DNA of 64,000 nt from an uncultured Methanosarcinales archaeon (GTDB lineage: Archaea; Nanobdellota; Nanobdellia; Woesearchaeales; CAYSVS01), in assembly GCA_964434475.1 (NCBI GenBank), contig CAYSVS010000001.1, positions 22,820 through 86,819 on the forward strand, in the 5' to 3' direction. Positions 11,780 to 61,005 of the stretch are shown here, piece by piece. Below the pieces are notes generated by a model that was given only the letters and a program-made list of their open reading frames with translations, made no database searches and was not told where the DNA came from. A program made the position numbers and the translations under genes. The stretch's first letter is position 1. Every line of letters starts with the position of its first letter.

Positions 11780-11792
11780 TTTTATTTTCTCT

Positions 11793-12068: not shown

Positions 12069-12105
12069 ATTATTCCCTCCTAAGCGGTTTGTTTTTTCTT
12101 ATTTT

Positions 12106-23986: not shown

Positions 23987-24148
23987 ATGGCAAAATTCGC
24001 AGAAGCTACAAAAAGGCTGTTTTCAAATATATTTGTGTGCAGGAAATGCAAGACTAAGATGCGTGCACCTAACTTGAAAGTATTAGCTGGCAAAGTAAAG
24101 TGCAGAAACTGTAATAGCAGAATACTTAGACCTGTCAGAAAAAAATGA
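23987..24148 (+). CDS. rpl40e: Ribosomal protein L40e (53 aa, absent from the ORF track)
   Basis: Hand translation gives MAKFAEATKRLFSNIFVCRKCKTKMRAPNLKVLAGKVKCRNCNSRILRPVRKK, an L40e-type C4 zinc ribbon. Its TGA overlaps the downstream ATG. Confidence 0.7.
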   Translation: MAKFAEATKRLFSNIFVCRKCKTKMRAPNLKVLAGKVKCRNCNSRILRPVRKK

Positions 24149-45219: not shown

Positions 45220-45343
45220 TTACTTATATCGGGCTGATATATTATCGATAAAAAGACATACAACAAATAACAACATTTATAAATGGTACGCGATTTAATC
45301 TTTATTTAATAATGTTAAAACATTATAAAGGGAGGGTTTGAAT

Positions 45344-48300
45344 ATGAGGAAAGCAATATTATTATTTACTATGTTAATTTTAAGTTCTGTTTTAGTTTCA
45401 GCAGTACCTATCAACTATGATGGATATGTCAAAAGTCCGATAGGAATAGGAATACCGACAATGAATGTTTCTGTATATAATACTGCTGCAGGATATTCTG
45501 GTACAAGACAGCAATGGAAAGTTACAAGTGCGAATCCTGCATCATTAGGTAGATTTACTGGTTCGTATATGACCGATGATGGTGCAACAAATGCAGATAT
45601 TATAAGAATTTATTCATATAATGAATCTAATCTTGCTTTGGGTTATGCTTTCCTTTTAACAAACTTAGCTAATGTGACTTCATCAAATCATGGAAATCTT
45701 ACAATAAACAGATCCTTTTACCCTCTATTCACTAATGTAGCTTCTCCTCAGAATGATACAGAATATGCGACACAAAATATAAATTTTACATTTACAGTAC
45801 AAGACGATGTTACAGAAGATTTTGAAGAAGATATGTCTTGCGCATTTTATCTTGGTTATGGTACTTCTCCTTCCTTAAACACAACAAATACGACTGTTGA
45901 TTCTGGCGATACTGTGACTTTTGTAAAAACAGCCCTTTTGGATGGAGGATACAATTGGTATATTAACTGTACTAACAATAGATCTGTATCAAATGTAACT
46001 TCAGTCTATGAGTTTGATATAGATACAAAAGCGCCAAGATATGACCAGATACAGGTAAGTGGTTCAATCGTAAATATTTCCGACAACGTAAATATCTGGG
46101 CAAATTGGACAGATACATTCCTCGATTCAGCAGTATTGATAGTTAATGATACAGATAATGAGACTAAGGATATTTCTATGTCAGATATGAATTGGAACCT
46201 GACAAATTTTACATTTACACCTGCTTCAAGCTTTGTCAAACAAAACATTACTTTCAATATAAGGGCAAATGATACTTTAGGTAATTTAAATACTACAACA
46301 AACGCTTATGTCTATTTTAGAGATGATGTTAAGCCTGATGTTGTTCTCATAAATCCTGCAAATCAAAGCTCTAAATCAAGCACGAGTATAACTTTCAACT
46401 ATAGCTATTCAGATAATGTCGCAGGTAATCTAAATTGCTCCTTATACTTAGATATGGGATATAATGAATCTCAAACAGTTGCTGCAACTACTACAATGCA
46501 ATATGGTGCATTTGCAAAAACAGTAGAAGATAATGACGATCACGAATGGTATGTTGTCTGTGTTGATAGTGATGGAAATTCGAATATAACACCAACCAAT
46601 GAATTCACTGTTGACAGCAGCGCTCCTATAGTGAATCTAAACGAGACACAATCATCAACTGTTAACCAAGGTGATAAAATCCATTACTGGGCAAACTGGA
46701 CATATGGAATAAATCAGATTGATGTTGCAATTTTATATGTTAATGGTCAAATGGCGAATATGACCTATTCAGTAGGTTCAAATAATTTAGTCAATCTATC
46801 ATATACAACTAATAATAACCAGGCAGGTTCAACCTTATCATTGTATATGTGGGTGAATGATACTGCTGGATTAGAAGCAAATTCAGGAATCATCACTGTT
46901 GGCGTTAATGACACTATTGCGCCGAGTGTTGTTCCAAATCTACCTATAGATAATTACAATACTTCTTCATTGACAATGAATTGGTCAGCGATAGTTACAG
47001 ACAACAATGTCGCGCCCAATATTAGTTGTAATATAAGTGTAGCAGGAAATATTAATCATATAGGTTCAGGTTTTACAAACGGTTCGATTGTATCCACAGG
47101 TGATCAAACTGTTCCGACAGGAGTTAATCTTTGGAACTTTACATGCTGGGATCAAGCAGGCAATACTGCAACATCAGCTACAAGAACATTGAATGTTGAT
47201 AGACAAGCGTCGCTTGTATTTGCTCAAGGTTATAATGATTCAACAGTTGGATTAACTAAATCTATATTGGTTTATGCGAATGTAACTGATAATTTTTTAG
47301 GTATAAAGAACGTAAGCATAAAATATGGTTCAAATGCACCTGTTGCGATGACTCCAACAGGAGATACTTATAGCGTTGCAACAACTGCTGGTGCTTTGGG
47401 TATAAGTACAACAGACAACCATTCTGTTACAATAATAGCATATGATACTGTTAATAATGTAAATAATACAGAAGTTATCTATATCGATGTTGATGCAAGC
47501 ATGCCTATAGTACATACAGTTTTAGCAAATGAAACTTATGTAAAAAGCACAGACCTTATCAATTTTTCAGCATTTGTCAATGATACGTCTTTGGTAAGCG
47601 TCACCTTGAACGGAACAAATATGACTGGTGATATGGTAAACGGTGGAATATTTTATACGATAAACTCAACATCTGATTTCGGATGTGAAGATATTGAAGG
47701 AACATGCACATTCTTTGTTTCAGCATCAGATACAGTAGGAAATGTAAATGATACAGAGAGTGTTACTGTAACTGTTGATGATATAGCACCAAGAGTTACA
47801 AGTTTTTCAGTTGTTGATGCTGATAATATGGTTATGAACACCACTTCAGTAGTTGTAAGAGCCAACATAACAGATGCAAGTGTTGCTAGTGTTACAGTAA
47901 ACGGAACAGCGATGAGCCAATCAGGAGATTATTATCAAGTTACAACGACTATGGCGGCTTTAGGCTGCGCTCCAGACGGAGAATGTACTCTAGGCATCAC
48001 GGCAACTGATGCAGCTGGAAACATTAATTCAACAGAAACTACTACTATAACAGTTGATACAACAGCTCCAACAATGAATTTAACATATCCAGGAAATAAT
48101 ACTTGGAGAAAGGTGACAACACCAAAATTGAATTACTCATTTGTTGATGCATATAGTGATAATGCAAGCTGTACTTTATCCATAAACTCAGTAGATTTCA
48201 CTAGTACAGTTAACAATGATACTCAAAAACAAGTATATGTAACAGGTGCTAGCTTATCAAGCGGTTCAACATATACTTGGACAGTGGCTTGTACAGATTT

Positions 48301-50602
48301 AGCAGGAAATGTTGGAACCAGCTCAAGAGTAATCAAGATAGATACAGTAAAGCCAAGCACAACATTGACATATAATAATACTGATGCAGAAACAACTTGG
48401 GTTAATACTCCTGTAAATATCACTATAACAGCAACAGATGTAAATTCAGGTGTCAATTATACACAATGGAGAAATTCAACATCCGGCTCATGGATAACTG
48501 TTGAAGGAAGCTTTGTATTGTCAAACAATTTGACTGACAATATTATATATTATAGGTCAGTTGACAATGCGACAAACACTGAGACAATCAAACAGAAAGA
48601 TTTCTACTATGATGGAACAGCTCCTGTTGCGCCTTCGATAACATTAAGCTCAGATACTGTGGGATTGGGCGGAAGTGTTGTAGTTGATGTAACTAGTTCA
48701 GATCTTTTGTCAGGATTAGCTTCAACAGCTGATTATGAGATAAATGGTTCAACTGGAACTTTAGATTATTCGAACGGAAAATATTCTGGAACAGTAACAG
48801 CTCCAGCAATAGCAGGAACATATAATTTGACAATCACAGTAAGTGATGAAGCAGGAAATACTGTAAGTGATGCAAATTCTCAGATAACTACAAACGGTAC
48901 AGTAGCTTCAATCAGTGTAAATAAGGCTAATGGAACTGTTGTAGAAAGCGGAAGCACAGTTACGATTACTATCGATGGCGATAATGCAACCGGTTGGTAT
49001 AATTATACTGGTGGATCAGAAACGAATATTTCTGGAACTTCAGCATCAGTTACAATATCTGGCACAGGATTGTTTAATCTGTATGTGTATGCGAACAATA
49101 CAGCAGGATTGGTAAATCAAAACTATACTTATGTTATTGATGCAGATGCGCCTTTAACAACTGTTACAGCTCCTACAGCAGGTTCAGAGATTAACGCAAC
49201 AGATACAATAACAGCAACAGCAGACGATCAAACTGGAATTGGTGTTGAAAATGTTGTTTTCACTGTAACTAAAGTAGGAAGCACAACTGCTTATAAAACA
49301 TTTACAGATACAACATCGCCATATACATTTACATTAGATACTTTTGCAGCAAAAGACGGTAATTATAGTATAGAAGCTGTAGCAACAGACTACTTTAGCA
49401 ATAGCAATACATCAACAATCTATGTGGTGATAAATAACACAGGAGTATCGACTACAACAAATGCAGACGCATCTGGTGAGGTTGATTTTTCAGCAACAGA
49501 TTTTGCTACAGTATTGGATGTGATTACAGGATTGAATGATAGTGTTAATGTAGTGGTTTCAGTTCCACAAAGTGTTGCTAATGCTCCAAGTACAACGACG
49601 CAATTAGAGGAAACAATACACACTTTAAATATCACAACAGATACGCCAGCAACATCAAGAGTTTATTTTACTATTTTGACAACTACATTGGATGATTTGA
49701 GCATAACTTCTCCATACTCTAATCTGTATGTTTATGTAGATCATGGAAGTGGAGTAGAAGAAATAGGTGCAGCAACATTTGTTGATACAGTAACAAAGAA
49801 CGGTAATGAGTATAAGAGATTCTATTTTGAAACCGATGAATACAGTACATTTTTCATAGGTAAGAAAGCTGTAGTGGTACAAGAAGATGATGAAGAAACT
49901 TCAACCACTGGCGGAACAACAGGCGGGTTAAGCACACTATCAACAGCAAAAGGAATATCTGTGACTCATATGTGGAATGTTATCAAGCCTTCTATTCCAA
50001 GTTCGATGAGTATAACAAACGATGATATAGCATTCAGGAAAGTTGTATTCACTGTAACTGAAGAATCTCAAAATGTAAGGATGGAGATAACATCTTTGGC
50101 AGAAAAGCCAGAAACAACTGTTGAGATTATTGAACCTGTATTCCAGTATCTTGAAGTTGATACTACTAACCTTGATGATGTCAATATCAAATCAGCAAAG
50201 ATAAGCTTTGAGATCAAGAAATCGTGGTTGAACGGTAACAATAAAGAAAGCGTAAGGCTTTTAAGGTTCAGTGATGGCAAGTGGAATGAACTGACTACAG
50301 AATTGACCAATGAAGATGGCACTTATGTTTATTATGAAGCAACTACGCCTGGTTTCAGCTATTTTGCGATAGTGTCTAAAAAGATAGCAGAAGAGCCTGT
50401 AGAGACTGTGCCAACAGAAGAAGTTGAAGAAGAGGTTGAGGTTGAAGAGGAAGAAGAAGCTGCTCCTGAAACCAAGCCAATCGAAGCTCCTGTAACAGAA
50501 GAAGGAATGAAAGGCTGGTTTATAGTGATTGTGTTGGTTGTAATCGGTGTAGCAGCTTATTATTGGTACAACAAGCCAAAGAAAAGGAAGAATAAAAAAT
50601 AG
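45344..50602 (+). CDS. Large T/N-rich secreted surface protein (about 1752 aa) with C-terminal TM anchor and basic tail
   Basis: The probable start is the ATG at 45344, 8 nt after an AGGGAGGG SD; the track opens at 45338. Signal peptide MRKAILLFTMLILSSVLVSAVP. Many Ig/fibronectin-like T-rich repeats with dense sequons. Acidic linker, then GWFIVIVLVVIGVAAYYWYNKPKKRKNKK at the C-terminus. A PGFSYFAIV motif lies ~60 aa before the TM. Confidence 0.8.
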   Translation: MRKAILLFTMLILSSVLVSAVPINYDGYVKSPIGIGIPTMNVSVYNTAAGYSGTRQQWKVTSANPASLGRFTGSYMTDDGATNADIIRIYSYNESNLALGYAFLLTNLANVTSSNHGNLTINRSFYPLFTNVASPQNDTEYATQNINFTFTVQDDVTEDFEEDMSCAFYLGYGTSPSLNTTNTTVDSGDTVTFVKTALLDGGYNWYINCTNNRSVSNVTSVYEFDIDTKAPRYDQIQVSGSIVNISDNVNIWANWTDTFLDSAVLIVNDTDNETKDISMSDMNWNLTNFTFTPASSFVKQNITFNIRANDTLGNLNTTTNAYVYFRDDVKPDVVLINPANQSSKSSTSITFNYSYSDNVAGNLNCSLYLDMGYNESQTVAATTTMQYGAFAKTVEDNDDHEWYVVCVDSDGNSNITPTNEFTVDSSAPIVNLNETQSSTVNQGDKIHYWANWTYGINQIDVAILYVNGQMANMTYSVGSNNLVNLSYTTNNNQAGSTLSLYMWVNDTAGLEANSGIITVGVNDTIAPSVVPNLPIDNYNTSSLTMNWSAIVTDNNVAPNISCNISVAGNINHIGSGFTNGSIVSTGDQTVPTGVNLWNFTCWDQAGNTATSATRTLNVDRQASLVFAQGYNDSTVGLTKSILVYANVTDNFLGIKNVSIKYGSNAPVAMTPTGDTYSVATTAGALGISTTDNHSVTIIAYDTVNNVNNTEVIYIDVDASMPIVHTVLANETYVKSTDLINFSAFVNDTSLVSVTLNGTNMTGDMVNGGIFYTINSTSDFGCEDIEGTCTFFVSASDTVGNVNDTESVTVTVDDIAPRVTSFSVVDADNMVMNTTSVVVRANITDASVASVTVNGTAMSQSGDYYQVTTTMAALGCAPDGECTLGITATDAAGNINSTETTTITVDTTAPTMNLTYPGNNTWRKVTTPKLNYSFVDAYSDNASCTLSINSVDFTSTVNNDTQKQVYVTGASLSSGSTYTWTVACTDLAGNVGTSSRVIKIDTVKPSTTLTYNNTDAETTWVNTPVNITITATDVNSGVNYTQWRNSTSGSWITVEGSFVLSNNLTDNIIYYRSVDNATNTETIKQKDFYYDGTAPVAPSITLSSDTVGLGGSVVVDVTSSDLLSGLASTADYEINGSTGTLDYSNGKYSGTVTAPAIAGTYNLTITVSDEAGNTVSDANSQITTNGTVASISVNKANGTVVESGSTVTITIDGDNATGWYNYTGGSETNISGTSASVTISGTGLFNLYVYANNTAGLVNQNYTYVIDADAPLTTVTAPTAGSEINATDTITATADDQTGIGVENVVFTVTKVGSTTAYKTFTDTTSPYTFTLDTFAAKDGNYSIEAVATDYFSNSNTSTIYVVINNTGVSTTTNADASGEVDFSATDFATVLDVITGLNDSVNVVVSVPQSVANAPSTTTQLEETIHTLNITTDTPATSRVYFTILTTTLDDLSITSPYSNLYVYVDHGSGVEEIGAATFVDTVTKNGNEYKRFYFETDEYSTFFIGKKAVVVQEDDEETSTTGGTTGGLSTLSTAKGISVTHMWNVIKPSIPSSMSITNDDIAFRKVVFTVTEESQNVRMEITSLAEKPETTVEIIEPVFQYLEVDTTNLDDVNIKSAKISFEIKKSWLNGNNKESVRLLRFSDGKWNELTTELTNEDGTYVYYEATTPGFSYFAIVSKKIAEEPVETVPTEEVEEEVEVEEEEEAAPETKPIEAPVTEEGMKGWFIVIVLVVIGVAAYYWYNKPKKRKNKK

Positions 50603-52212: not shown

Positions 52213-53142
52213 TTATTCAGTCAATCCTTCGCAATCATAGATAGATATATGTTCTTGGTCAAGTCTGAACCATATAGGTAATCCTTGTATATTGTAGTAT
52301 TTAGGGTTTAGATCAGAGAAATATATGTAATCTACCACTGACTTTTCTTCAATATTTATGTTATTATTTACAAGATTCTCAATATTCACTAGGCTTTCTA
52401 TCCCCTTATCATTTGCAGTTGTTTTTCCTTCTAACCTGTCAAGATAGCTTGGCCCTAAATCTGATGCTATGTAGTGTTGGCTTAGTGTATGATTCAATAG
52501 TTTTTCTGTTTTGTTATTTTCAATAAAATTGGAGTATGGGCTTTTTTTGATTATATTTGGAACTTTGCCTAACGTATTAATAGAGTATAAAGGATCTTCT
52601 AATCCTTTTATGCTTATTTTGCTTTTGATTGTTTTATTGTATCTGAATTCTGCAATATCACTTTTGTCTTTTAATTCTATATCTGCTTTTAATCTTATTT
52701 CAACGAACCAAGGATCGGTTTGATATATATCTATAGAGATTATGCTTATATTTGAGATAATATTCATATAATCTGCTTTTTCTTTTACTTTGTTAAGCCA
52801 TAGTGCTAGATTGGTATTGTTCATCATCCGAGATTCTTGCCCGTCTAATGTGCTGTTTATGAACAGTTCTTTAAAATCTTTATTGACATTGTCACTGAAT
52901 TCTCTTTTTTCTACTATGTTATCTGTTATTGATGTTAATGCTCTTGAACCTATTATTTCAGATGCTCTTTCTATGTCTCTTTCGAAATCTTCAATAAAGT
53001 AGTTCATTGTATTGACTCTTTTTTTGATAAGATCTCTATCTTTATCTTTTTCTTCGTTTAATGTAAAAGCTGTTAGCAGGAGTGAAACCAGTAAAATTGT
53101 GCTTACTGTAAAAAACATTGCTTTTTTATTTTTTAATGCCAT
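52213..53142 (-). CDS. Pilin-like protein (309 aa) with type IV pilin-type N-terminus
   Basis: N-terminus MALKNKKAMFFTVSTILLVSLLLTAF (basic residues then a hydrophobic helix). Last gene of the minus-strand pilin operon. Confidence 0.5.
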   Translation of the reverse strand: MALKNKKAMFFTVSTILLVSLLLTAFTLNEEKDKDRDLIKKRVNTMNYFIEDFERDIERASEIIGSRALTSITDNIVEKREFSDNVNKDFKELFINSTLDGQESRMMNNTNLALWLNKVKEKADYMNIISNISIISIDIYQTDPWFVEIRLKADIELKDKSDIAEFRYNKTIKSKISIKGLEDPLYSINTLGKVPNIIKKSPYSNFIENNKTEKLLNHTLSQHYIASDLGPSYLDRLEGKTTANDKGIESLVNIENLVNNNINIEEKSVVDYIYFSDLNPKYYNIQGLPIWFRLDQEHISIYDCEGLTE

Positions 53143-55742
53143 ATTCTAACCTCTGCTTTAGTAGGGCCTATCAGATAAGGTATGTTGCCTATATCTATCT
53201 GGTTTACGTTTATGTTCAAGTTTTGTATATTAAGATATAGCAATCCGTCATCATCAAAATCTAATGTTTTGAAAAATTCATATGTTGCAACATCTGTTGC
53301 ATCTTTTCTGTCATAAGATTTTTCCTTGAAATAGCAGTCTTTATCTCCTTTGTAATCATTAGGTATTTTTATTTCTGTTTCTTCACCATCTTCAAATTCC
53401 AGATGCCATCTACATCCTTCGCTTTTTGGCAGAACTTCAGTATATCTTATCTGCGGATAATATATTAAGTCATAGATTAATCTGCTTTTTTCCGGAATCT
53501 TGTTTTTTGATGATGTGCCTATATTAAGTGTAATCTGGTTATCTTCTTCTTTTTCTATATATTTTGTAGGTATGTTTATATGGAATGGATCGCCTAGTTC
53601 TGAATAAGGTAAATTATATGTGTCAATGTCATAAGTATCTATGTCATAGTTTGAGTTTTTTATGTTAGCAGTTTTTGTCCAATAGTCTTTTGAATATGAT
53701 GTTAAAGTTAGCTGTGTTATATCCATTTCTTCGGGTATGTATATACTGGAATTAGAGCTGAAAGGAGGCGTTTCTATGTTGAATAGTATTCCTTCTGGAT
53801 TTTTTTCTTCTTGATTTATTATCTCTATGTATGAATCAGGATATAATGCTGTTGGTTCATAACTGAAGTTTGTCTGGATTGTTTGTTTATTATAACTGAT
53901 ATTTGCTATGCTTTCTGCTATAGACTCATATATTTCGCTTAATTGTGAAGCATTGCTCGCGTCAAAATACTTGCCTTCATTACATGCCATCTGGCTTAAT
54001 GTAGATGCGTCTGCACTTTCTCCAAATCCTACTGTGTAGACGCTTATGTCTTCATCGCATGCTTCTTGTGCAGCTCTTATCGCATCTGTCTTTCCGTTTC
54101 CGCTTCCTCCATAGCATCTTATGTTTGCTTCTCCATCACTCATAACGACAATAAACCTTTTGTTTGTGCTTGATCCTATATTTTCCATGGCTCTTATTAT
54201 TCCGCAGCATATACAAGTTCCGTACCAAGAGTCCATATTATTTATGTGTTCTTTTAGTGTATTTATGTTATTGGTAAGATGAATCTCTCCTACTATTCCT
54301 TCAGGAAATTCTACGATATCCTGGCCACAAGGTTGTTCTACATAGCTTGAATAGTAAGGATATTCTGCGCTATATTCTACCAATCCTATGTTGTTGTTTT
54401 CATTTTCGAGTATGTTATCTATAAAATCAGTGGAAGCTTTTTTAGCAACGTCTATCCTTCTCTCTGCTTCATCTCTGCATTTTCCTGTCCTTATCCATTT
54501 ATATCCGCATGCATCTTGTCCTGCTTTATCAGGATAATTGAAATGCTGCTGCCATCTCCAATTTGTCATATAATCGTCTGGTTCGTTTATACAATATTCC
54601 ATACTGCCTGAGAGGTCGCTTGCCAGGATAACATCAGCAAATTCCTGATCTTGTGTTGTGATGTTCTTTATGCTTAATCTTATAGGCAATGTAGTGTAGC
54701 TGATATCTTCATAGTTAAATATGGTTTGCAGTTCGTTATCATCTATTATTATTGTTTTTTCTCCTTTTGGATTATCTTCATATACTGTCTTATTTCCTAT
54801 TCTCAGATATGTGTCATATGTGCTGTTTATATGGAGTTTGATATTCATCCCTTTGATATCTTTTGTATTTATGCCTGAATAATAATTTATGAAGCCTTTG
54901 ATGCCTTTGAAATATTGTTTTGTCTCAGTATCTGGTTTGAAAAATATGTCTGAAACATTGTAGCTTATCTGGAAAAACCCTCCTGCGATGTATCCTTTAT
55001 TCTGGAATTTAATTTCTATGGTGTTGTTTCCTTTTGTTATTAAATCTAGTTTGTCTTCTGGAACCTGGTAGTAAAAATCTTCTTTTTCACACTCTTTGGC
55101 AAGATATTTGTTTATGTACAGTTCAAAATCTTGATCAGTATCAAATTCAAAATCTGCTGATTTTATAGTATCTGCATTCATAGGAATTCTTATATTGAAT
55201 GTTATGTTTCCATTGCCTATGTATCCTCCAAAATATTCTCTCTTGTTTTGTGTATAATCCTTTATCTCTGTCATAGAAGATCTTGCGATATAACCTTTTA
55301 TGCTTTTGTTTTTCATTATTCCGGTTATATGTCTTGTTCCTGAGATAAGTTGTTTTGGGGTTTTTTCAGATGTAGAATATATCTTTTCCTCTTCTAAAAA
55401 AAATCCATAATCCATCTGCGGAGGTATGATGTTTTTTGAGATGTTCTTAAAAATGTTTTTCGCGATATTTTCTCTATTTGTAGACCAAAATATTACTGTC
55501 TGTTCCAATACAGAATTATCTGTTTCGGTAATTATCTTATCCTCTATAAGTTTGTTTATATACTCATTGTTTGTCTCGTTTATTTTCATCATAGACAAGC
55601 TGTTTATCATATCCTGTGAGTAGAATTCAAGTTGAGATTTTGGATTCTCATGTATATTGAAGCTTGTTAATGCTGTTATACTTATCATTATCAATGTAAG
55701 TGCAAAGATTCCGTCTGCTGTGAAAAACTGGGCTTTTTTCAT
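53133..55742 (-). CDS. Large pilin-like protein with von Willebrand factor A domain (candidate pilus-tip adhesin)
   Basis: N-terminus MKKAQFFTADGIFALTLIMISITAL. vWA MIDAS motifs ILASDLSGSMEY, FIVVMSDGEANI, VYTVGFGESAD at roughly 53970..54620. 869 aa. Confidence 0.65.
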   Translation of the reverse strand: MKKAQFFTADGIFALTLIMISITALTSFNIHENPKSQLEFYSQDMINSLSMMKINETNNEYINKLIEDKIITETDNSVLEQTVIFWSTNRENIAKNIFKNISKNIIPPQMDYGFFLEEEKIYSTSEKTPKQLISGTRHITGIMKNKSIKGYIARSSMTEIKDYTQNKREYFGGYIGNGNITFNIRIPMNADTIKSADFEFDTDQDFELYINKYLAKECEKEDFYYQVPEDKLDLITKGNNTIEIKFQNKGYIAGGFFQISYNVSDIFFKPDTETKQYFKGIKGFINYYSGINTKDIKGMNIKLHINSTYDTYLRIGNKTVYEDNPKGEKTIIIDDNELQTIFNYEDISYTTLPIRLSIKNITTQDQEFADVILASDLSGSMEYCINEPDDYMTNWRWQQHFNYPDKAGQDACGYKWIRTGKCRDEAERRIDVAKKASTDFIDNILENENNNIGLVEYSAEYPYYSSYVEQPCGQDIVEFPEGIVGEIHLTNNINTLKEHINNMDSWYGTCICCGIIRAMENIGSSTNKRFIVVMSDGEANIRCYGGSGNGKTDAIRAAQEACDEDISVYTVGFGESADASTLSQMACNEGKYFDASNASQLSEIYESIAESIANISYNKQTIQTNFSYEPTALYPDSYIEIINQEEKNPEGILFNIETPPFSSNSSIYIPEEMDITQLTLTSYSKDYWTKTANIKNSNYDIDTYDIDTYNLPYSELGDPFHINIPTKYIEKEEDNQITLNIGTSSKNKIPEKSRLIYDLIYYPQIRYTEVLPKSEGCRWHLEFEDGEETEIKIPNDYKGDKDCYFKEKSYDRKDATDVATYEFFKTLDFDDDGLLYLNIQNLNINVNQIDIGNIPYLIGPTKAEVRIWH

Positions 55743-56203
55743 TTCCAGACATACACCCCTATGTTGATCAGATCCTTATCTAATATGCCTATCCTTTCAA
55801 TCTTAACCAGCTCTGTGGTTTCATCATAATCCTCTATTCCATTTATCTTTTCAGTTTCATTATCTTTTGATAGATATATGTAGAAATCAAATTTCATGTT
55901 AGTGATGTTTTTTAATCTGTTGTATTTAATATTTTTTAAGTACTTTAATTTTGTTTTGTTAATCTCATTATCCAGTATTCCTATCTGTTCTATGTTTTCT
56001 GTATTCCAATGTTCAGGATAACCTGTATCCATCAACATTTCAGATAGTCTTATTGCTTCGTTCTCAATTATGTTTACTGATTTCAGGCCTGAATCATAAT
56101 TATAGAAAAATATTGCTGCAACTAATGTAAAGAGCATCAATCCTATCATGAAATCGATGTAAAAAACCTGTGCTTTCTTATTGATTAATGATGACTTTTC
56201 CAT
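55739..56203 (-). CDS. Pilin-like protein (154 aa)
   Basis: N-terminus NKKAQVFYIDFMIGLMLFTLVAAIFF, a class III signal peptide-like sequence. Confidence 0.5.
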   Translation of the reverse strand: MEKSSLINKKAQVFYIDFMIGLMLFTLVAAIFFYNYDSGLKSVNIIENEAIRLSEMLMDTGYPEHWNTENIEQIGILDNEINKTKLKYLKNIKYNRLKNITNMKFDFYIYLSKDNETEKINGIEDYDETTELVKIERIGILDKDLINIGVYVWK

Positions 56204-56576
56204 TTTTTTTCTCTATCTTGTTTATCCCTTTTTCTAGCTCTCCTGTGAATCCTGCCAGTTTGATTTCCTGTTCAAGATTATTATCTAGGGTAACTATCAA
56301 ATATTCTGAGATTACTATAAAATTATATTCGTGATTGTCTATCTTTTCAGGTATTCTAAAATATCTTGTATATCCTTGTTTTGAATTTCTTGCTATATTT
56401 ATCTCCTGGTAAATATTATATGAAAAATCCTGTAATGCTTTATATTGCTTTTTTTGTTCTATGTCTTTGAACTGGCTATAGGTGAATGTTGAGAAAGTTA
56501 TAAGAATTAAGAATCCTACCGCTATCAACATCATGAATTCCATAGAGATCTGAGCTTTTTTTAACCGCTTATCCAT
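56178..56576 (-). CDS. Archaeal type IV pilin-like protein (DUF361-type class III signal peptide)
   Basis: N-terminus LKKAQISMEFMMLIAVGFLIL fits the QxSxExxxL motif of EppA/PibD-processed pilins. 132 aa. Confidence 0.6.
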   Translation of the reverse strand: MDKRLKKAQISMEFMMLIAVGFLILITFSTFTYSQFKDIEQKKQYKALQDFSYNIYQEINIARNSKQGYTRYFRIPEKIDNHEYNFIVISEYLIVTLDNNLEQEIKLAGFTGELEKGINKIEKKNGKVIINQ

Positions 56577-56968
56577 ACATAGTCTCCTCTAGATTCTATG
56601 CTGATTATATGCATACCTTCTTTTTCGTCGATGCTGCCCTGGAGATTGGCTTCAGAAAAGAATTCCATGTCGCTGATTCCTGCGTCTGTTTTTATCCTAA
56701 AGTTTATCTCGTTCTTCGATATTATTATATTATCTATGTTTTTAGGAAAGTTTATCTCTAATGTTGTTTTTGAAGGTTTTCCGTGGTAGTAAACTTCTTG
56801 TGCTGAGTTCACTATTGTAGTACCTATCTTATTTATGTGTTCTGAAATAATAGTATCTTCTGCTGTGGCAGAATACGATATGTATATGATGGTCAATGGT
56901 ATTATCAGTGCCATCGCTATCCCTACTAATAACAGATATTCCATGCTTGACTGAGACTTTTTCAACAT
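56561..56968 (-). CDS. Archaeal type IV pilin-like protein (DUF361-type class III signal peptide)
   Basis: N-terminus MLKKSQSSMEYLLLVGIAMALII is a perfect QxSxExxxL motif. First gene of the five-gene minus-strand pilin operon. Confidence 0.65.
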   Translation of the reverse strand: MLKKSQSSMEYLLLVGIAMALIIPLTIIYISYSATAEDTIISEHINKIGTTIVNSAQEVYYHGKPSKTTLEINFPKNIDNIIISKNEINFRIKTDAGISDMEFFSEANLQGSIDEKEGMHIISIESRGDYVWISG

Positions 56969-57058: not shown

Positions 57059-57664
57059 TTGAATAGAGGGATAGTAATGAAAAAAAGGGGTGCAACTAAA
57101 AGTAGAAAGCATAATGCTAGTCATAAAAAGAAAGATAATATGCGAAAATCAAAAAAACCTACAAAAGTTTCTCTAAAAAGAAAACCTAAACCAAGTTCTA
57201 AAAAATCAATTACTAAATCAAGAAAGGAAACTAAAAAGCTAATAAATAAATCCCGGAAAAAGGTCAAAAAAAGTTTTAACAAGAACAAGGGAAAAAAATC
57301 AAAAGCTTCTGAAAAAGAGACAAAAAAACGTTCTGGGAAACGTTTATCTAATCGCAAAAGCAAAAAATCATCTAAACCATCTAAAAATTTCAACAGTCAA
57401 TACAAAAAACCTAAACACGCAAAAAAAAAGAGATCTAAGGTTATTAAGATAGATCTTTCTCATCTTGGAGCATATGAAACTGAACTCGATAAATTATTGG
57501 AGGAAGTGAACGAAAGAGAGAAAATAAGTGTAAGGCAGGTTGCAAAAGCTTTTGAAGTGCCTAAATCATTGGTAGAATATTGGGCAAGAATTTTAGAGCA
57601 GAAAGGATTGATCACTTTGCATTATCCATTGATAGGAAGTCCTAAATTGAGGAAGAAAAGATGA
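57059..57664 (+). CDS. Highly lysine-rich basic protein with C-terminal HTH-like domain (putative DNA-binding regulator)
   Basis: ~150 aa of K/S/R-rich low-complexity sequence, then SVRQVAKAFEVPKSLVEYWARILEQKGLITLHY. First gene of the plus-strand pilus assembly operon; its stop overlaps the ATPase start. Confidence 0.4.
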   Translation: MNRGIVMKKRGATKSRKHNASHKKKDNMRKSKKPTKVSLKRKPKPSSKKSITKSRKETKKLINKSRKKVKKSFNKNKGKKSKASEKETKKRSGKRLSNRKSKKSSKPSKNFNSQYKKPKHAKKKRSKVIKIDLSHLGAYETELDKLLEEVNEREKISVRQVAKAFEVPKSLVEYWARILEQKGLITLHYPLIGSPKLRKKR

Positions 57665-59157
57665 ATGTTGTCGAAGAGTATAAGGTTAATATTGATGATG
57701 TTGATGTGAAGGTAAAGATATTAGGCGGAAAAGGACACGCATTAAATTATAATCTTCAGTTAAAGGAGTTTAAGCCAGCAACAAAAGCTTTTATCGACGA
57801 GATAAGGGACGAGCTTGTACATCATGTAAAACTGAGCAGTTTTGAGATACTTGATTCTAAGGCGATAGCTGTTATCAAGAATAGGTTCAGGCAGAAAGCG
57901 AACGAATTAATTGAAAAAAAGCTTCCCCATGTTTCAATCAAAACTAGAAAGTATATAGTAGGATATCTTATACACGAGATGCTTGGGCTTGGTAAACTCG
58001 AGTTGTTGTTGGGAGATGAACATCTTGAAGAGATTGTAGTTAATTCATCTAAAGAGCCTTTGTATGTTTATCATAAGAAATACAAATGGCTTCAGACCAA
58101 TGTGAATATACCTCAAGAATCAAGTATACTTAATTTTTCAAATATAATTGCAAGAAGGGTAGGAAGACAGATAAATACTATGAATCCTTTGCTTGATGCT
58201 CATTTGGTATCAGGAGACAGGGCTAATGCTGTATTGTATCCTGTATCAAACAAAGGCAACCTTATAACTATAAGAAAATTTGCAAGAGACCCGTGGACTG
58301 TTGTTGAGTTTGTCAAGAATGGGACATGCAGCCCTTATATATTTGCATTACTCTGGACTGCTATCCAGTATGAAATGAATATACTTATCAGTGGAGGAAC
58401 AGCAGCAGGAAAGACCTCTATGCTCAATGTTCTTAGCGCTTTTTTTCCTCCTGCACAACGTATCATAAGTATAGAAGATACAAGGGAGATACAACTCCCT
58501 GAATTCTTGCATTGGGTTCCTTTGACCGCAAGGATAGAGAACACAGAAGGAAAAGGTTCTGTGTCTATGCTTGATCTGTTGATAAACTCTTTACGTATGC
58601 GTCCGGATAGGCTGATAGTGGGAGAAATGAGAAGAAAAAGGGAAGCTGAGGTCCTGTTCGAGGGTATGAATACAGGACATAGTGTTTATGCTACAATACA
58701 TGCAGACTCTGTTCAGCAGACAGTAAGAAGGCTTATCAATCCTCCAATAGAGTTGCCTGAACTTTTGCTTGAATCTTTGAACCTTAACGTTGTAATGTTC
58801 AGGGACAGGAAGACAGGTAAAAGGGTTATGCACCAGATAGGAGAGTTTATGGTAAAAGGAGGAAATGATGCTTATATAGAGCCGAACATACTTTACGAGT
58901 GGGATCCAAAGACAAAGAAACAAAGATTGATGCATAAAAGCTCAAGGTTATTCAAGGAATTGTCAAAACATACAGGGATGACTGTAAAAAGGCTTGAAAA
59001 AGAGATAAAGGATAAACAGAAGATAATAAAATGGATGGTCAATAAAAATGTAAAGGGCGTTAACGAGGTAGGAAAGATAGTCAAGGAGTATTATCTTAAT
59101 CATGATGCTCTTATGAAATTTGTCAACGCAAACAAAGATCCGAATACACTAAAATGA
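57661..59157 (+). CDS. Type IV pilus/archaellum-type assembly ATPase (FlaI/TadA/VirB11 superfamily)
   Basis: Walker A ISGGTAAGKTSML, Asp box IISIEDTREIQL, Walker B RPDRLIVGEMRRKREA, His box NTGHSVYATIHADS. Confidence 0.8.
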   Translation: MNVVEEYKVNIDDVDVKVKILGGKGHALNYNLQLKEFKPATKAFIDEIRDELVHHVKLSSFEILDSKAIAVIKNRFRQKANELIEKKLPHVSIKTRKYIVGYLIHEMLGLGKLELLLGDEHLEEIVVNSSKEPLYVYHKKYKWLQTNVNIPQESSILNFSNIIARRVGRQINTMNPLLDAHLVSGDRANAVLYPVSNKGNLITIRKFARDPWTVVEFVKNGTCSPYIFALLWTAIQYEMNILISGGTAAGKTSMLNVLSAFFPPAQRIISIEDTREIQLPEFLHWVPLTARIENTEGKGSVSMLDLLINSLRMRPDRLIVGEMRRKREAEVLFEGMNTGHSVYATIHADSVQQTVRRLINPPIELPELLLESLNLNVVMFRDRKTGKRVMHQIGEFMVKGGNDAYIEPNILYEWDPKTKKQRLMHKSSRLFKELSKHTGMTVKRLEKEIKDKQKIIKWMVNKNVKGVNEVGKIVKEYYLNHDALMKFVNANKDPNTLK

Positions 59158-60053
59158 ACAGATTAAATTTTTTTCTTTTGCCTGAAAGGATATTGAAAAG
59201 GTTTAGTCATTTATTTTTAGGCATAAGTGAAAAGATAGAAGGAAGCTTCAATTCTCTTGAACTGGACCTTAAACAATCAGAAATAAGGATAAATAAGATA
59301 GATTATATCTCTTATTCTCTTGCTTCGTCTTTTATCTTGTTTATCTTGTTGTTTTTGCTTTTTGCAGGATTGTTTGAATATTTTGGGCATAAGAATTATA
59401 TCTTTCTTTCTGTATTATCTTCCTTTTTTCTGATATTTCTTAATTTTTTAAGGATATTGAACTATCCTAGATTCATCACAAACAGAAGAGTGAAAAATAT
59501 TGAAAAGGATTTGTTGATAGTGTTGAGAAATATGTATGTGCAGGTAAAGTCCAACATACCTTTGTTCACTGTGATGGTAAATGTGGCGGGACAGGATTTT
59601 GGAGAGGTAAGCAAGGAATTCAAACGTATGGTAAAACAGATAAACTCAGGCATTTCTGAAGTAAAAGCTTTAGAGGAATCAGCTACAAACACACCTTCTG
59701 CTTTTTTCAGGACAGTATTATGGCAGATAATAAATGGGGTAAAGACAGGGGCAGATATATCTGTTGTTTTGAAAGATCTTATAGAGATGCTTTCAGGAGA
59801 ACAGGTTGATCAGATACAGGAATATGGAGCTTCGCTTAATTCACTTGCTTTATTTTATATGCTTTTAGTGATAATAATGCCTTCTTTAGCGATAACCTTT
59901 TTGATAGCTTCATCAGTATTTTTTTCAAAAGCGATTGTCACGACAAAAGCCTTGTTTTGGCTCTTGTATGTTCTGGTTGTTCTGTTCCAGATAATATTTT
60001 TAGGTATAATAAAATCAAAAAGACCTAGTTTGTTGAGGGATGAAAATGTATGA
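59154..60053 (+). CDS. TadB/GspF-like pilus platform membrane protein (single T2SSF-like domain)
   Basis: 299 aa polytopic membrane protein with a soluble helical insert between TM segments. Translationally coupled to the ATPase and to the next gene. Confidence 0.5.
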   Translation: MNRLNFFLLPERILKRFSHLFLGISEKIEGSFNSLELDLKQSEIRINKIDYISYSLASSFILFILLFLLFAGLFEYFGHKNYIFLSVLSSFFLIFLNFLRILNYPRFITNRRVKNIEKDLLIVLRNMYVQVKSNIPLFTVMVNVAGQDFGEVSKEFKRMVKQINSGISEVKALEESATNTPSAFFRTVLWQIINGVKTGADISVVLKDLIEMLSGEQVDQIQEYGASLNSLALFYMLLVIIMPSLAITFLIASSVFFSKAIVTTKALFWLLYVLVVLFQIIFLGIIKSKRPSLLRDENV

Positions 60054-61005
60054 TTTCATAGGGAGACTGTTTCCTGTATCTGTAAGGAAGAATATAGGTC
60101 AATTGTTGATGTATTCTGATATTGATATAGATACAGAGAGATATATAGGTTTTACTTTTTTGTTTGATATAGCTTTAAGTATTGTAATTACATTATTTCT
60201 AGGACTGTTTTTCAAATTCAATATGCTTATTGTATCTTTATTGTTTTTTGTATTGTTCGATATGATAAGCTATTTTACGCTCCATTTCAAAGCACAGTCA
60301 AAGTCGAAGTTTATTGAATCTATACTTCCTGATGCTTTAAGGCTTACAGCAGGCAACCTTAAGGCAGGAATAACTACAGATAAAGCTTTGCTTTTAAGCG
60401 CCAGACCTGAGTTTGGGCCTTTTAAAAAAGAGTTAATAAGGGCTGGAAAAGAGATAGCTACAGGAAAAGAGATAACCAAGTCTTTGATGGATATAACACA
60501 AAGAGTGAGGTCAGTGAAACTGAAACATGTTATTGAGCTTATTGTTTCTGGATTAAAGACAGGAGGTCAATTAAGCGATCTGCTGCAGCAAACAGCAGAA
60601 GATCTTACAAGGCAGAAACTTATCGAAAGAAAGATAAGGACAAACGTAAAGCTTTATGTCATATTTATATCTATAGCTATAGCTTTTGCGTCTCCTGTTT
60701 TATATGCTTTAAGCACTTTCCTATTGGAAGTTATGGCTGCAAAATTAGCTGCTATAGATCCTAGCGTTTTTTCTTTGATACAGTTTAGCACAGGTAAGAT
60801 GCTGGAGATAAGCTTTGTTACACGATATATAGTTATATCTATAGCGACTACTGTCGTACTGGGTTCTCTTGTGCTTGGACAGATAAGTAAAGGAGATGAA
60901 AAACAAGGAATAAAGAAGATACCTTTCTTGATACTTATTTCTTATGTACTTTTTTTCGTTGTGCTCTTATTTTTGAGAAGAATATTCGGTATGTTCTTGA
61001 TATAA
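60040..61005 (+). CDS. TadC/GspF-like pilus platform membrane protein (second half of a split FlaJ/TadC)
   Basis: 321 aa polytopic membrane protein. Position and topology are consistent with the second T2SSF domain. Confidence 0.5.
   Translation: MKMYDFIGRLFPVSVRKNIGQLLMYSDIDIDTERYIGFTFLFDIALSIVITLFLGLFFKFNMLIVSLLFFVLFDMISYFTLHFKAQSKSKFIESILPDALRLTAGNLKAGITTDKALLLSARPEFGPFKKELIRAGKEIATGKEITKSLMDITQRVRSVKLKHVIELIVSGLKTGGQLSDLLQQTAEDLTRQKLIERKIRTNVKLYVIFISIAIAFASPVLYALSTFLLEVMAAKLAAIDPSVFSLIQFSTGKMLEISFVTRYIVISIATTVVLGSLVLGQISKGDEKQGIKKIPFLILISYVLFFVVLLFLRRIFGMFLI

What the first reader, a model, noticed from the sequence alone, without database searches (positions are those of the whole stretch)
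53133..55742. 869-aa pilin-like protein carrying a vWA (MIDAS) domain: putative pilus-tip adhesin
It has an N-terminal pilin-type signal/anchor (MKKAQFFTADGIFALTLIMISI) and an intact metal-ion-dependent adhesion site (DLSGSM...SDGEAN...TVGFGESAD). vWA-tipped pili are known from bacterial systems. An archaeal pilin of this size with vWA would be an obvious host-binding candidate.
Basis: partly seen in the sequence, partly recalled or inferred. Interest (0 to 1): 0.6.

Follow-up and report, generated by a model that had tools for sequence, protein, structure and literature searches.

The report
Archaeal pilin-like vWA adhesin candidate
This gene from a tiny symbiotic-type (DPANN) archaeon encodes a large surface protein with a pilin-type N-terminal helix and a metal-dependent adhesion (vWA) domain. 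It sits in a fixed five-gene "minor pilin" block beside a type IV pilus motor, which makes it the best candidate for how these uncultured archaea grip surfaces or host cells.

Summary

The N-terminus (MKKA|QFFTAD plus a 22-residue hydrophobic helix) fits the archaeal class III (prepilin) rule: K/R at -2, G/A at -1, and the cleavage site before the H-domain. This pattern holds in 62-65 of 65 homologues. The N-terminus is profile-homologous to the N-termini of two neighbouring pilin-like proteins.

The gene is the fourth of a fixed five-gene block (p135>p132>p154>vWA>p309). The block lies next to a TadA/CpaF-like ATPase and two TadC-like platform genes. This order recurs in most of 85 related loci. 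At least 309 genomes encode a relative; the 80 examined are almost all labelled DPANN.

No prepilin peptidase is in the window. Two related loci encode one 2-3 kb from the vWA gene.

Best reading: a modular minor pilin presented at or near the filament tip, working as a metal-dependent adhesin. It is functionally analogous to bacterial TadG/CpaL and S. sanguinis PilB but is not a sequence member of those families. Cleavage, tip location and ligand are inferred. I rate it a new variant of a known kind, with moderate to high interest.

The parts
53133..55742 (-). 869-aa class III-signal (pilin-like) vWA protein, the finding itself
   Evidence: ORF and translation. Family of full-length homologues in DPANN MAGs. 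AF2 model pLDDT 84.7.
55656..55742 (-). aa 1-29: 4-residue leader MKKA, predicted prepilin-peptidase site A4|Q5, then the hydrophobic alpha1-like helix with D10 (= +6)
   Evidence: Column counts in A1: K/R at -2 62/65, G/A at -1 65/65, D at +6 64/65, A at +10 62/65. A less constrained count over 84 locus ORFs agrees. Modelled as helix 2-29. hhalign to the p154 and p309 N-termini.
54657..55655 (-). aa 30-362: helical linker (34-102) plus two beta-sandwich/jelly-roll subdomains (111-358) with the invariant YFGGYIGxGN and IAGG motifs
53901..54638 (-). aa 369-614: vWA (Rossmann-like) domain
54603..54617 (-). MIDAS DxSxS: D376-L-S378-G-S380
   Evidence: Translation checked. Conserved 65/65, 65/65 and 64/65.
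54216..54218 (-). MIDAS Thr T509, followed by the conserved Cys cluster C510, C512, C513
   Evidence: T 63/65; each Cys 61/65.
54135..54137 (-). MIDAS Asp D536 (SDG)
   Evidence: D 64/65.
54459..54596 (-). aa 383-428: lineage-specific Cys-containing loop inserted directly after DxSxS (insertion hot spot A)
   Evidence: Low pLDDT. 12% identity and 43% gaps across the family. In long homologues the same site carries inserts of up to about 1190 aa.
54297..54371 (-). aa 458-482: lineage-specific beta-hairpin (insertion hot spot B)
   Evidence: 13% identity and 73% gaps. Insert site in P0111, P0175, P0129 and others.
53136..53885 (-). aa 620-869: conserved C-terminal beta-rich domain of unknown fold, with the C777/C803 pair, a GCxWxxEFED motif and the DFDDDG loop (aa 828-833)
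   Evidence: pLDDT mostly 80-95. No Pfam or PDB sequence match. Cys pair 64/65 and co-absent.
56561..56968 (-). p135: small pilin, KKS|QSSMEY (Q+1, E+5, Y+6; Epd/Flp-type)
   Evidence: A2: E invariant and Q >=90% in 85 sequences. 18/85 match Pfam Class_IIIsignal. Q+1 108/122 and E+5 108/122.
56178..56576 (-). p132: small pilin, KKA|QISMEF (Q+1, E+5, F+6)
   Evidence: Pfam Class_IIIsignal E 0.0026. Family counts 57/68.
55739..56203 (-). p154: minor pilin-like, NKKA|QVFYID (Q+1, D+6), same N-terminal class as the vWA protein
   Evidence: D+6 48/61. hhalign to the vWA N-terminus 92.3%, E 5.5e-7. Present in 79/85 loci.
52213..53142 (-). p309: larger pilin-like protein, KNKKA|MFFTVS, with no acidic residue at +5/+6 (candidate cap subunit)
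   Evidence: hhalign to the vWA N-terminus 76.7%, E 2e-5. Present in 83/85 loci, and directly downstream of the vWA gene in nearly all arrangements listed.
57059..57664 (+). Lys-rich protein with a C-terminal winged-helix domain, conserved upstream of the ATPase
   Evidence: Weak MarR/HTH Pfam hits. Present in 62/85 loci.
57661..59157 (+). Type IV filament assembly ATPase (T2SSE; TadA/CpaF/FlaI-like)
   Evidence: Pfam T2SSE E 2.7e-30. NCBIfam FlaI 263 bits and TadA family 189 bits, both below cutoff. Relatives at 54-58% identity are named CpaF/TadA family in Woesearchaeota/Nanoarchaeota.
59154..60053 (+). Platform protein 1 (T2SSF; TadB/TadC-like)
   Evidence: Pfam T2SSF E 1.3e-14.
60040..61005 (+). 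Platform protein 2 (T2SSF; TadB/TadC-like)
   Evidence: Pfam T2SSF E 5e-13. A split platform is the hallmark of archaeal system 1 (Epd) and bacterial Tad (10.64898/2026.04.22.720090).

Best explanation
The protein is a modular, class III-signal (type IV pilin-like) subunit of an Epd/Tad-like type IV filament of a DPANN archaeon (Woesearchaeota/Nanoarchaeota type).

Proposed mechanism:
1. It inserts in the membrane with the short MKKA leader inside and the bulk outside.
2. A prepilin peptidase encoded elsewhere cuts after A4.
3. The freed hydrophobic helix lets it join p154 and p309, which share its N-terminal class. Together they form a priming/tip complex.
4. The ATPase and the two platform proteins then polymerise the E5-bearing pilins p135/p132 onto that complex.
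5. This places the bulky ectodomain at or near the filament tip. The ectodomain comprises two CBM-like jelly rolls, the vWA domain and a C-terminal beta domain.
6. There the MIDAS metal completes its coordination with an acidic group on a ligand. Lineage-specific loops and inserted modules on the vWA domain tune specificity.
7. For an episymbiont-type archaeon the likely ligand is on a host cell surface.

Shown: the vWA fold, the conserved MIDAS, the class III-type motif, the conserved operon and the machinery linkage. Inferred: cleavage, incorporation into the filament, tip position, adhesin role and the identity of the ligand.
For: - vWA and MIDAS.
- Class III layout: against the published rule (PMC4371748).
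- N-terminal homology to the neighbouring pilin-like proteins.
- The two small neighbours carry the Q+1/E+5/[FY]+6 signature of EppA substrates such as EpdB/C (KG|QV; PMC4371748).
- Overlapping genes indicate one operon.
- The fixed order p135>p132>p154>vWA>p309 beside HTH-ATPase-TadC-TadC recurs in most of 85 loci at only about 30% identity.
- A Peptidase_A24 gene is linked to the locus in L076 and L079.
- Thirteen N-x-S/T sequons and 13 Cys fit an extracellular ectodomain. An AglB gene is in the window.
- p309 lacks the acidic residue, as tip-capping GspK-type pilins do (GspK and CpaL logic from PMC8179133 and 10.1101/2025.02.12.637803).
- Variable inserts (LamG and others) cluster in vWA loops.
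- Structural neighbours include pilus-tip vWA adhesins (Mfa5, SpaC, PilB, RrgA, GBS104).
- Functional precedents are PilB (PMC8179133) and CpaL/TadG (10.1101/2025.02.12.637803).
Against: - No prepilin peptidase lies in the 64-kb window, and the rest of the genome was not available.
- No signal-peptide predictor could be run.
- After the helix there is no recognisable pilin alpha-beta roll or Ig-type pilin head, so only the helix is pilin-like.
- The acidic residue is D at +6, not E at +5.
- The vWA core, including the MIDAS, is the most conserved part. That could equally mean a conserved internal partner rather than diverse external ligands.
- By sequence the nearest vWA domains are BatA/BatB-type membrane proteins, which are not pilus proteins.
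- There are no expression, localisation or binding data. No cultured organism appeared among the 80 loci listed, judging by their record titles.
Confidence: 0.6

Rival explanations
1. Assembly or priming factor rather than adhesin. The protein is a class III subunit of the initiation complex, and its vWA/MIDAS binds another machinery or envelope component (for example p309, p154 or an S-layer protein). Its job would be to start, stabilise or anchor the filament. This matches what was once proposed for TadG (anchoring) and what PilY1 and the minor pilins do in priming.
For: - The vWA core and MIDAS are the most conserved segment (41% against about 30% elsewhere), and the N-module motifs are invariant. 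This is the pattern expected for a conserved partner.
- Among loci selected for carrying the vWA gene, p309, p154 and p135/p132 are almost always present too (83, 79 and 78 of 85).
- CpaL deletion affects pilus number (10.1101/2025.02.12.637803).
- Makarova et al. cite the TadG anchoring hypothesis (PMC4858521).
Against: - Priming and adhesion are not exclusive. PilY1 and CpaL are proposed to do both.
- Large variable modules (LamG and others, up to more than 1000 aa) inserted in vWA loops, and tandem paralogues in some loci, are hard to explain by a purely internal role.
Confidence: 0.2
2. A surface-anchored vWA protein that is not built into an extended filament. After (or without) cleavage it would stay in the membrane by its N-terminal helix. 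It might sit in a short pseudopilus or a bindosome-like assembly, as the class III-signal sugar-binding proteins of Sulfolobus do.
For: - Only the helix is pilin-like, and no pilin head domain is present.
- The ATPase also shows similarity to the bindosome ATPase BasE (130 bits).
- Bindosome-type class III substrates are a documented archaeal precedent (PMC4371748; 10.64898/2026.04.22.720090).
Against: - The operon contains bona fide small E5-type pilins able to form a filament.
- The ATPase is closer to FlaI and TadA models than to BasE.
- The five-gene layout mirrors minor-pilin/tip operons.
Confidence: 0.15
3. An ordinary Sec-exported or TM-anchored BatA/BatB-like vWA protein that merely lies next to a pilus locus.
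Against: - All Bat scores are far below the family cutoffs (19.5 bits against 380).
- The K-[KR]-[GA] site precedes the H-domain and is invariant.
- The N-terminus is homologous to those of p154 and p309.
- The genes overlap translationally.
- The position inside the pilin block is fixed in most of 85 loci.
- No other Bat-operon protein family (for example a MoxR-type ATPase) was among the Pfam hits for any window ORF scanned.
Confidence: 0.05

Closest known systems
TadG / CpaL of bacterial Tad (Flp) pili (A. actinomycetemcomitans TadG; Caulobacter crescentus CpaL)
   Same: - A large minor-pilin-like protein with a prepilin-type N-terminus fused to a MIDAS-bearing vWA domain that is interrupted by an inserted beta-rich region.
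- Encoded with two smaller minor pilins, next to a TadA/CpaF-type ATPase and a split platform (TadB/TadC).
- Small major pilins with a G|xxxxE[YF] motif.
- CpaL is predicted to sit at the tip with CpaJ/CpaK (10.1101/2025.02.12.637803).
- Tad pili are thought to derive from archaeal Epd-like pili (10.64898/2026.04.22.720090).
   Different: - No sequence membership: no hit at E<=0.1 to any Tad-named Pfam family except one noise hit to TadF (1/53 at E 0.089).
- The N-terminal motif is x-[FY]-F-[ST]-x-D-A with D at +6.
- The architecture is larger: helical linker, two jelly rolls, vWA and an extra 250-aa C-terminal domain.
- It is an archaeal host with a single membrane and no secretin.
PilB, bimodular type IV minor pilin of Streptococcus sanguinis (PDB 7b7p/7ba2)
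   Same: - A class III signal peptide plus a vWA module with a complete MIDAS.
- A shown adhesin, modelled at the pilus tip.
   Different: - PilB has a canonical pilin alpha-beta head directly linked to the vWA. Here no pilin head is detected.
- PilB's leader and motif are the bacterial N-methyl type with E5.
- That paper's survey of modular pilins covered bacteria only and does not mention archaea.
PilY1/PilC plus the minor-pilin priming complex (T4aP), and GspH-I-J-K of the T2SS
   Same: - An operon of several minor pilins plus one large adhesin with a vWA domain (P. aeruginosa PilY1).
- A cap subunit lacking the acidic residue (GspK), as p309 does here.
- The complex primes assembly and ends up at the tip (PMC8179133 and 10.1101/2025.02.12.637803).
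   Different: - PilY1 is not a pilin; it rides on the minor pilins through a beta-propeller, and no propeller is present here.
- No detectable sequence relationship.
Archaeal Epd pilus / TFF 'system 1' (Methanococcus maripaludis)
   Same: - A split platform (two genes) and one ATPase.
- Pilins with a KG|Q...E processing site like the EppA substrates.
- Accessory class III proteins with adhesin-like or galactose-binding domains are reported in the Epd cluster, and system 1 is reported in some DPANN.
   Different: - No vWA-bearing class III protein is described for Epd or any archaeal system in the papers searched.
- No EppA gene is in the window. The linked peptidases in L076/L079 are of PibD/FlaK size (283-292 aa).
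- Assignment of this locus to system 1 was not tested phylogenetically.
Sortase- and type V-pilus tip adhesins with vWA (SpaC, RrgA, GBS104, PitA, Mfa5)
   Different: The assembly chemistry is entirely different (sortase or strand exchange), with no class III signal. The resemblance is at the level of the domain and the design principle only.

Membership tests
vWA domain with MIDAS (Pfam PF00092 / integrin I-domain-like) | Significant match to the vWA profile and a Rossmann-like fold | tested here: met
vWA domain with MIDAS (Pfam PF00092 / integrin I-domain-like) | Five MIDAS ligands: DxSxS, T and D | tested here: met
   D376, S378, S380, T509 and D536 are present and 63-65/65 conserved. Metal binding itself was not testable.
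Archaeal class III signal peptide / type IV pilin-like protein | Processing site before the H-domain: G/A/S at -1, a charged residue at -2, then a roughly 20-residue hydrophobic helix (PMC4371748) | tested here: met
   MKKA|Q plus 22 hydrophobic residues. Family counts: G/A 65/65 and K/R 62/65. Modelled as helix 2-29.
Archaeal class III signal peptide / type IV pilin-like protein | Match to the curated N-terminal profiles (PF04021 Class_IIIsignal, PF07790 Pilin_N) | tested here: not met
   The vWA protein and its N-modules give no hit. The neighbours p132/p135 do hit PF04021 (18/85 at E<=0.01). These profiles are short and model other motif classes.
Archaeal class III signal peptide / type IV pilin-like protein | Cleavage by a prepilin peptidase (PibD/FlaK/EppA) present in the genome | tested here: inconclusive
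   None in the window. Peptidase_A24 genes lie 2-3 kb from the orthologue in L076 and L079 (47.2 and 36.5 bits against cutoff 26.5). The genome of the window beyond 64 kb could not be read, and cleavage is not testable here.
Archaeal class III signal peptide / type IV pilin-like protein | Globular pilin head (alpha-beta roll or Ig-like sandwich packed on alpha1C) | tested here: not met
Archaeal class III signal peptide / type IV pilin-like protein | Encoded with T4P assembly genes (ATPase and platform) and other pilins | tested here: met
   for the window. 61/85 loci have the ATPase and 57/85 have TadC genes despite truncated contigs.
TadG/CpaL family (Tad pseudopilin with vWA) | N-terminal TadE/G-like pseudopilin profile (a Pfam family; accession recalled from memory, not checked here) | tested here: not met
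   No hit at E<=0.1 to any Tad-named Pfam family in the protein. In 53 N-modules the only such hit is TadF, 1/53 at E 0.089, which is noise.
TadG/CpaL family (Tad pseudopilin with vWA) | vWA with MIDAS, split by an inserted domain, in a locus with a TadA/CpaF ATPase and a split platform | tested here: met
   This is a functional/architectural resemblance, not proof of common descent.
BatA/BatB aerotolerance-type membrane vWA proteins | Score above the NCBIfam BatA/PRK13685 cutoffs, and a Bat operon context | tested here: not met
   19.5 and 22.2 bits against cutoffs of 380 and 432. The context is a pilus locus.
PilY1/PilC adhesins | C-terminal PilY1 beta-propeller | tested here: not met
   No propeller family matched in Pfam, and PDB matches are vWA only. 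The fold of the C-terminal domain remains unidentified.

The most novel reading that the evidence does not exclude
The fixed five-gene block is the DPANN host-recognition device. The vWA subunit would be the archaeal counterpart of TadG/CpaL. That would mean a vWA-bearing tip subunit was already part of the Epd-like ancestor that gave rise to bacterial Tad pili. The swappable modules inserted into three vWA loops (LamG and others, up to more than 1000 aa) would then set which host a given Woesearchaeota/Pacearchaeota lineage can attach to.
Probability: 0.2. Interest if true: 0.8.

Novelty: new variant of a known kind. Interest (0 to 1): 0.58.

Why it matters
Woesearchaeota, Pacearchaeota and related DPANN archaea are abundant and have small genomes. 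They are presumed to live attached to other microbes. No cultured organism appeared among the 80 related loci listed, and neither their hosts nor their attachment molecules are known.

This family gives a concrete, widely conserved candidate: relatives in at least 309 species-representative genomes, and 468 cluster representatives at E<=1e-30. It has a testable active site (the MIDAS) and an obvious specificity-determining region (the loop inserts).

A recombinant ectodomain could be used as bait to find ligands or hosts in natural communities. Type IV pili have already been shown to drive episymbiosis in ultrasmall Saccharibacteria (PMC12206443).

The finding also extends the 'modular pilin' principle from bacteria to archaea. 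That principle means grafting an adhesion module onto a pilin helix, as established for PilB and proposed for CpaL/TadG. Finally, it bears on the evolutionary link between archaeal Epd-like and bacterial Tad pili.

Tried and rejected
- The plus-strand reading of the coordinates is full of stops. The gene is on the minus strand.
- Search for a prepilin peptidase in the window: a regex for the GxGD[VI]K motif in six frames, Pfam on essentially all ORFs >=90 aa, inspection of unannotated ORFs, and jackhmmer seeded with the two peptidases found in L076/L079. None was found; the only intramembrane protease is an M50 site-2 protease at 24145..25299.
- The afdb50 fold library was unavailable, so no comparison with predicted TadG/CpaL structures was possible.
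I solved this by aligning the truncated window sequence to full-length database proteins.
- tblastn against plasmids, to look for cultured-organism counterparts, gave only generic haloarchaeal VWA proteins. Neither lies in a T4P locus. Rejected as irrelevant.
- PDB profile searches with p135/p132, p309 and p154 gave nothing significant. Bacterial pilins PilE1, PilA5 and PAK appeared only at E 0.6-1.5.
- hhalign of the p135/p132 N-termini against the vWA N-terminus was not significant (13.9%). There are therefore two N-terminal classes in the operon.
- Literature searches for any description of a vWA-bearing archaeal or DPANN pilin found none. Makarova et al. 2016 discuss vWA only as ArnB-type cytoplasmic regulators and cite TadG.
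- The organism of the window could not be named. Its own protein carries no name in the collection, and its genome is not a species representative (best locus 52% identity).
- Some record titles ('uncultured Methanosarcinales archaeon', 'Euryarchaeota SM23-78', 'Altiarchaeota') are probably loose labels. They were not verified.

Full report
**1. The observation.**
The coordinates 53133..55742 delimit a real ORF, but on the minus strand. It starts with ATG, encodes 869 aa and begins MKKAQFFTADGIFALTLIMISI as quoted. Its start codon overlaps the stop of the upstream gene (ATGA), and its last 10 nt overlap the start of the downstream gene. It is therefore an internal gene of a tightly coupled operon.

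The MIDAS is complete: D376-x-S378-x-S380, T509 and D536. In 65 full-length homologues these residues are conserved 65, 65, 64, 63 and 64 times. The true fifth ligand is the Thr of WYGTCICCG. The Pfam match starts only at aa 435 because a 46-residue lineage-specific loop follows the DxSxS strand.

**2. Anatomy of the protein.**
- aa 1-29: a 4-residue leader and a hydrophobic helix.
- aa 34-102: a helical linker.
- aa 111-358: two beta-sandwich subdomains.
- aa 369-614: the vWA domain.
- aa 620-869: a conserved beta-rich domain.

A separate model of aa 1-367 (pLDDT 82) matches galactose-binding-domain/CBM35-36-86-type jelly rolls at modest Z (7-9.4) and matches no pilin head. The C-terminal domain has no Pfam or PDB sequence relative. 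Its fold could not be searched separately.

Thirteen N-x-S/T sequons and 13 cysteines fit an extracellular, glycosylated ectodomain. Six of the cysteines are conserved in the vWA domain, three of them directly after the MIDAS Thr, and there is a co-varying C777/C803 pair. An AglB gene is in the window.

**3. Is the N-terminus pilin-type?**
No predictor was available, so I tested the published rule. Archaeal class III signal peptides have the processing site before the H-domain, G/A/S at -1 and a charged residue at -2 (PMC4371748).

In the unbiased alignment the position before the hydrophobic stretch is G or A in 65/65 sequences. The preceding residue is K/R in 62/65. This is followed by x-[FY]-F-[ST]-x-D-A-[LF]-[IL]-A, with D at +6 in 64/65. 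A less constrained count over 84 locus ORFs agrees. A plain membrane anchor or a Sec h-region would not keep such a pattern at about 30% overall identity, and a Sec site would follow the hydrophobic region rather than precede it.

Profile-profile comparison shows this N-terminus is homologous to the N-termini of two neighbouring proteins: p154 (92% probability, E 5.5e-7) and p309 (77%, E 2e-5). The curated Pfam N-terminal profiles do not match the vWA protein itself. That point remains 'not met'.

**4. Context.**
The gene is the fourth of five co-oriented, overlapping genes that all begin with K-K-[G/A/S] plus a hydrophobic helix.
- p135 (56561..56968) and p132 (56178..56576) read KKS|QSSMEY and KKA|QISMEF. 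Across 85 family members the E is invariant and the Q is >=90% conserved. Eighteen of 85 hit Pfam Class_IIIsignal individually. This Q+1/E+5 signature is that of the EppA-processed Epd pilins of Methanococcus (KG|QV, KG|QI; PMC4371748). The following F/Y at +6 also resembles the Flp-type G|xxxxEY pattern of Tad pilins (from my own knowledge).
- p154 (55739..56203) shares the D+6 class with the vWA protein.
- p309 (52213..53142) has the same class of N-terminus but no acidic residue.

Divergently transcribed are a Lys-rich winged-helix protein, a T2SSE ATPase and two T2SSF platform genes (57059..61005). The ATPase's closest named relatives (54-58% identity) are 'CpaF family' or 'Flp pilus assembly ATPase TadA' proteins of Woesearchaeota and Nanoarchaeota MAGs. 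A split platform is the hallmark of archaeal TFF system 1 (Epd) and of bacterial Tad (10.64898/2026.04.22.720090).

The rest of the window is archaeal: aIF5B, aIF5A, eRF1/Pelota-like, prefoldin and AglB.

**5. The family and its conservation.**
The protein has 96 word-indexed homologues at E<=1e-40. These are full length at 26-52% identity and named only 'VWA domain-containing protein' in Pacearchaeota, Woesearchaeota and Nanoarchaeota MAGs. An exhaustive search gives 468 cluster representatives at E<=1e-30. At least 309 species-representative genomes encode a relative. The 80 listed are almost all labelled DPANN lineages; a few titles look like loose labels and were not verified.

I analysed 85 loci with iterated HMMs. 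The order p135>p132>p154>vWA>p309 is essentially fixed. p309 is present in 83 loci, p154 in 79 and p135/p132 in 78. The HTH-ATPase-TadC-TadC module is adjacent, either divergent or downstream, in 57-62 loci despite many truncated contigs. Extra p135-like pilin genes often follow (independent gene calls).

Two loci also encode a Peptidase_A24 prepilin peptidase 2-3 kb from the vWA gene (L076 and L079; 47.2 and 36.5 bits against cutoff 26.5). None is in the window or in the other loci.

**6. Variation.**
The vWA core is the most conserved part (41% mean identity, against 28-31% for the other modules). Two loops differ sharply: aa 383-428 directly after DxSxS, and the aa 458-482 hairpin. They are lineage-specific, with 12-13% identity and 43-73% gaps.

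In 88 longer homologues (980-2031 aa) the extra sequence sits at three hot spots: these two loops and aa ~520-529. Some inserts are LamG-like. By standard vWA topology the first two sites lie on the MIDAS face; this is inferred because I had no model coordinates. Some loci carry two or three tandem vWA paralogues.

**7. Mechanism.**
The best-supported reading is a modular minor pilin. After prepilin-peptidase cleavage at A4|Q5, its helix would assemble with p154 and p309 into an initiation/tip complex. The ATPase and platform would then add the E5-bearing pilins p135/p132 beneath it. p309 lacks the acidic residue, as GspK-type cap subunits do, and a similar argument is made for CpaL. The ectodomain would end up at or near the tip. 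There the MIDAS metal would bind an acidic ligand group, the jelly rolls might bind glycans, and the loop inserts would tune specificity.

The fold, the MIDAS, the motif and the synteny are shown. Cleavage, incorporation, tip position and ligand are inferred. I put this at about 0.6.

Rivals:
- A priming/anchoring role in which the vWA binds an internal partner (0.2). The high conservation of the vWA core favours it; the variable inserts argue against it.
- A membrane-retained or bindosome-like surface protein (0.15).
- A Bat-like or Sec protein that is merely adjacent (0.05). The motif, the N-terminal homology, the gene overlap and the fixed synteny contradict it.

**8. Comparison with what is known.**
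Functionally the closest systems are TadG/CpaL of Tad pili and PilB of S. sanguinis. TadG/CpaL is a minor-pilin-like N-terminus plus a split, MIDAS-bearing vWA, predicted at the tip with two minor pilins (10.1101/2025.02.12.637803). PilB is a bimodular pilin-vWA adhesin (PMC8179133). PilY1 with its minor-pilin complex and the vWA tip adhesins of sortase and type V pili are further analogues.

Membership fails where I tested it:
- No Tad-named Pfam family matches at E<=0.1, apart from one noise hit to TadF (1/53 at E 0.089).
- No pilin head is detected.
- No PilY1-type beta-propeller family matched.
- Bat-family scores are far below their cutoffs.

So the protein works like TadG/CpaL or PilB but is not a member of those families by sequence.

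In the literature I could search, no vWA-bearing class III protein is described for archaea or DPANN. Makarova et al. 2016 mention vWA only as ArnB-type regulators. The 2026 survey of archaeal TFF systems reports system 1 in DPANN but no vWA subunit. The PilB paper's census of modular pilins covered bacteria only.

**9. Verdict.**
I rate it a new variant of a known kind: the modular-pilin/vWA tip-adhesin design, realised with a distinct architecture in a conserved five-gene module of DPANN archaea. Interest is moderate to high (0.58). It offers a concrete, testable candidate for attachment in a large uncultured group, but every functional step beyond domain identity is still inference.

Noticed in passing
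window 29288..44566 (+), 44572..45219 (+), 45338..50602 (+): A block of giant surface proteins lies directly upstream of the pilus locus. The first is a 5092-aa ORF with DUF11 repeats, PPC, Inhibitor_I9 plus a subtilase S8 domain (E 2.8e-49) and cadherin-like/Big_9 domains. A 215-aa membrane protein follows. The third is a 1754-aa Big_13/Big_7/PKD protein with a C-terminal TM anchor.
   Followed up: partly
window 63120..63878 (+): A bacterial-type prolipoprotein diacylglyceryl transferase (Lgt, PF01790, E 2.6e-56) is encoded in an otherwise archaeal genome. From my own knowledge this is unusual for archaea and is possibly a horizontal acquisition.
   Followed up: no
window 1226..4384 (+): A 1052-aa AglB/STT3 oligosaccharyltransferase is fused to a C-terminal PPIC-type (parvulin) peptidyl-prolyl isomerase domain (E 2.6e-28). 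Glycosyltransferase genes follow it.
   Followed up: no
window 57059..57664 (+): A Lys-rich protein with a C-terminal winged-helix domain sits directly upstream of, and overlapping, the ATPase gene. It is conserved in that position in 62 of 85 related loci and is a candidate locus-specific regulator or machinery component.
   Followed up: partly
window 53244..53261 (-) (aa 828-833), and aa 509-513: There is a DFDDDG (DxDxDG-type calcium-loop-like) motif in the C-terminal domain. A conserved Cys cluster (T509-C-I-C-C) sits immediately after the MIDAS Thr, together with conserved C412, C543 and C587. This may be disulfide stapling or redox/mechanical control of the MIDAS.
   Followed up: partly
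L076 7448..8299 (+); L079 6970..7848 (-): Prepilin peptidases (Peptidase_A24; the one in L079 also has a weak Arc_PepC_II match) are linked to the vWA locus in only 2 of 85 related loci.
   Followed up: yes
related loci (the arrangements printed; locus ids were not recorded): Some loci carry two or three tandem vWA paralogues, and many carry one to four extra p135-like pilin genes after p309 or after the platform genes. KaiC-like ATPase genes (PF06745) flank the platform genes in L002, L003 and L005 but not in the window.
   Followed up: partly
family members in L002-L085: Sub-threshold Pfam hits connect the module's proteins to DUF families that I believe (from memory, not checked) are haloarchaeal. 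p132/p135 hit DUF7266 (9/85, best 3.9e-6), p154 hits DUF7287 (6/41, best 8.5e-6), and the vWA N-module hits DUF7288/DUF7262 (3/53). These may be distant counterparts of the block in cultivable haloarchaea.
   Followed up: no
window 8706..12939 (-): Four consecutive ORFs (354, 473, 91 and 277 aa) are Lys/Glu-rich and have no TM segment. Three have no Pfam family; the 354-aa ORF has only a sub-threshold DUF6263 hit (19.6 bits against cutoff 26.7).
   Followed up: no
window 386..1122 (+): Two adjacent short EamA-like half-transporter genes (130 and 115 aa) overlap by 4 nt. They are either a split or a paired SMR/EamA-type transporter.
   Followed up: no
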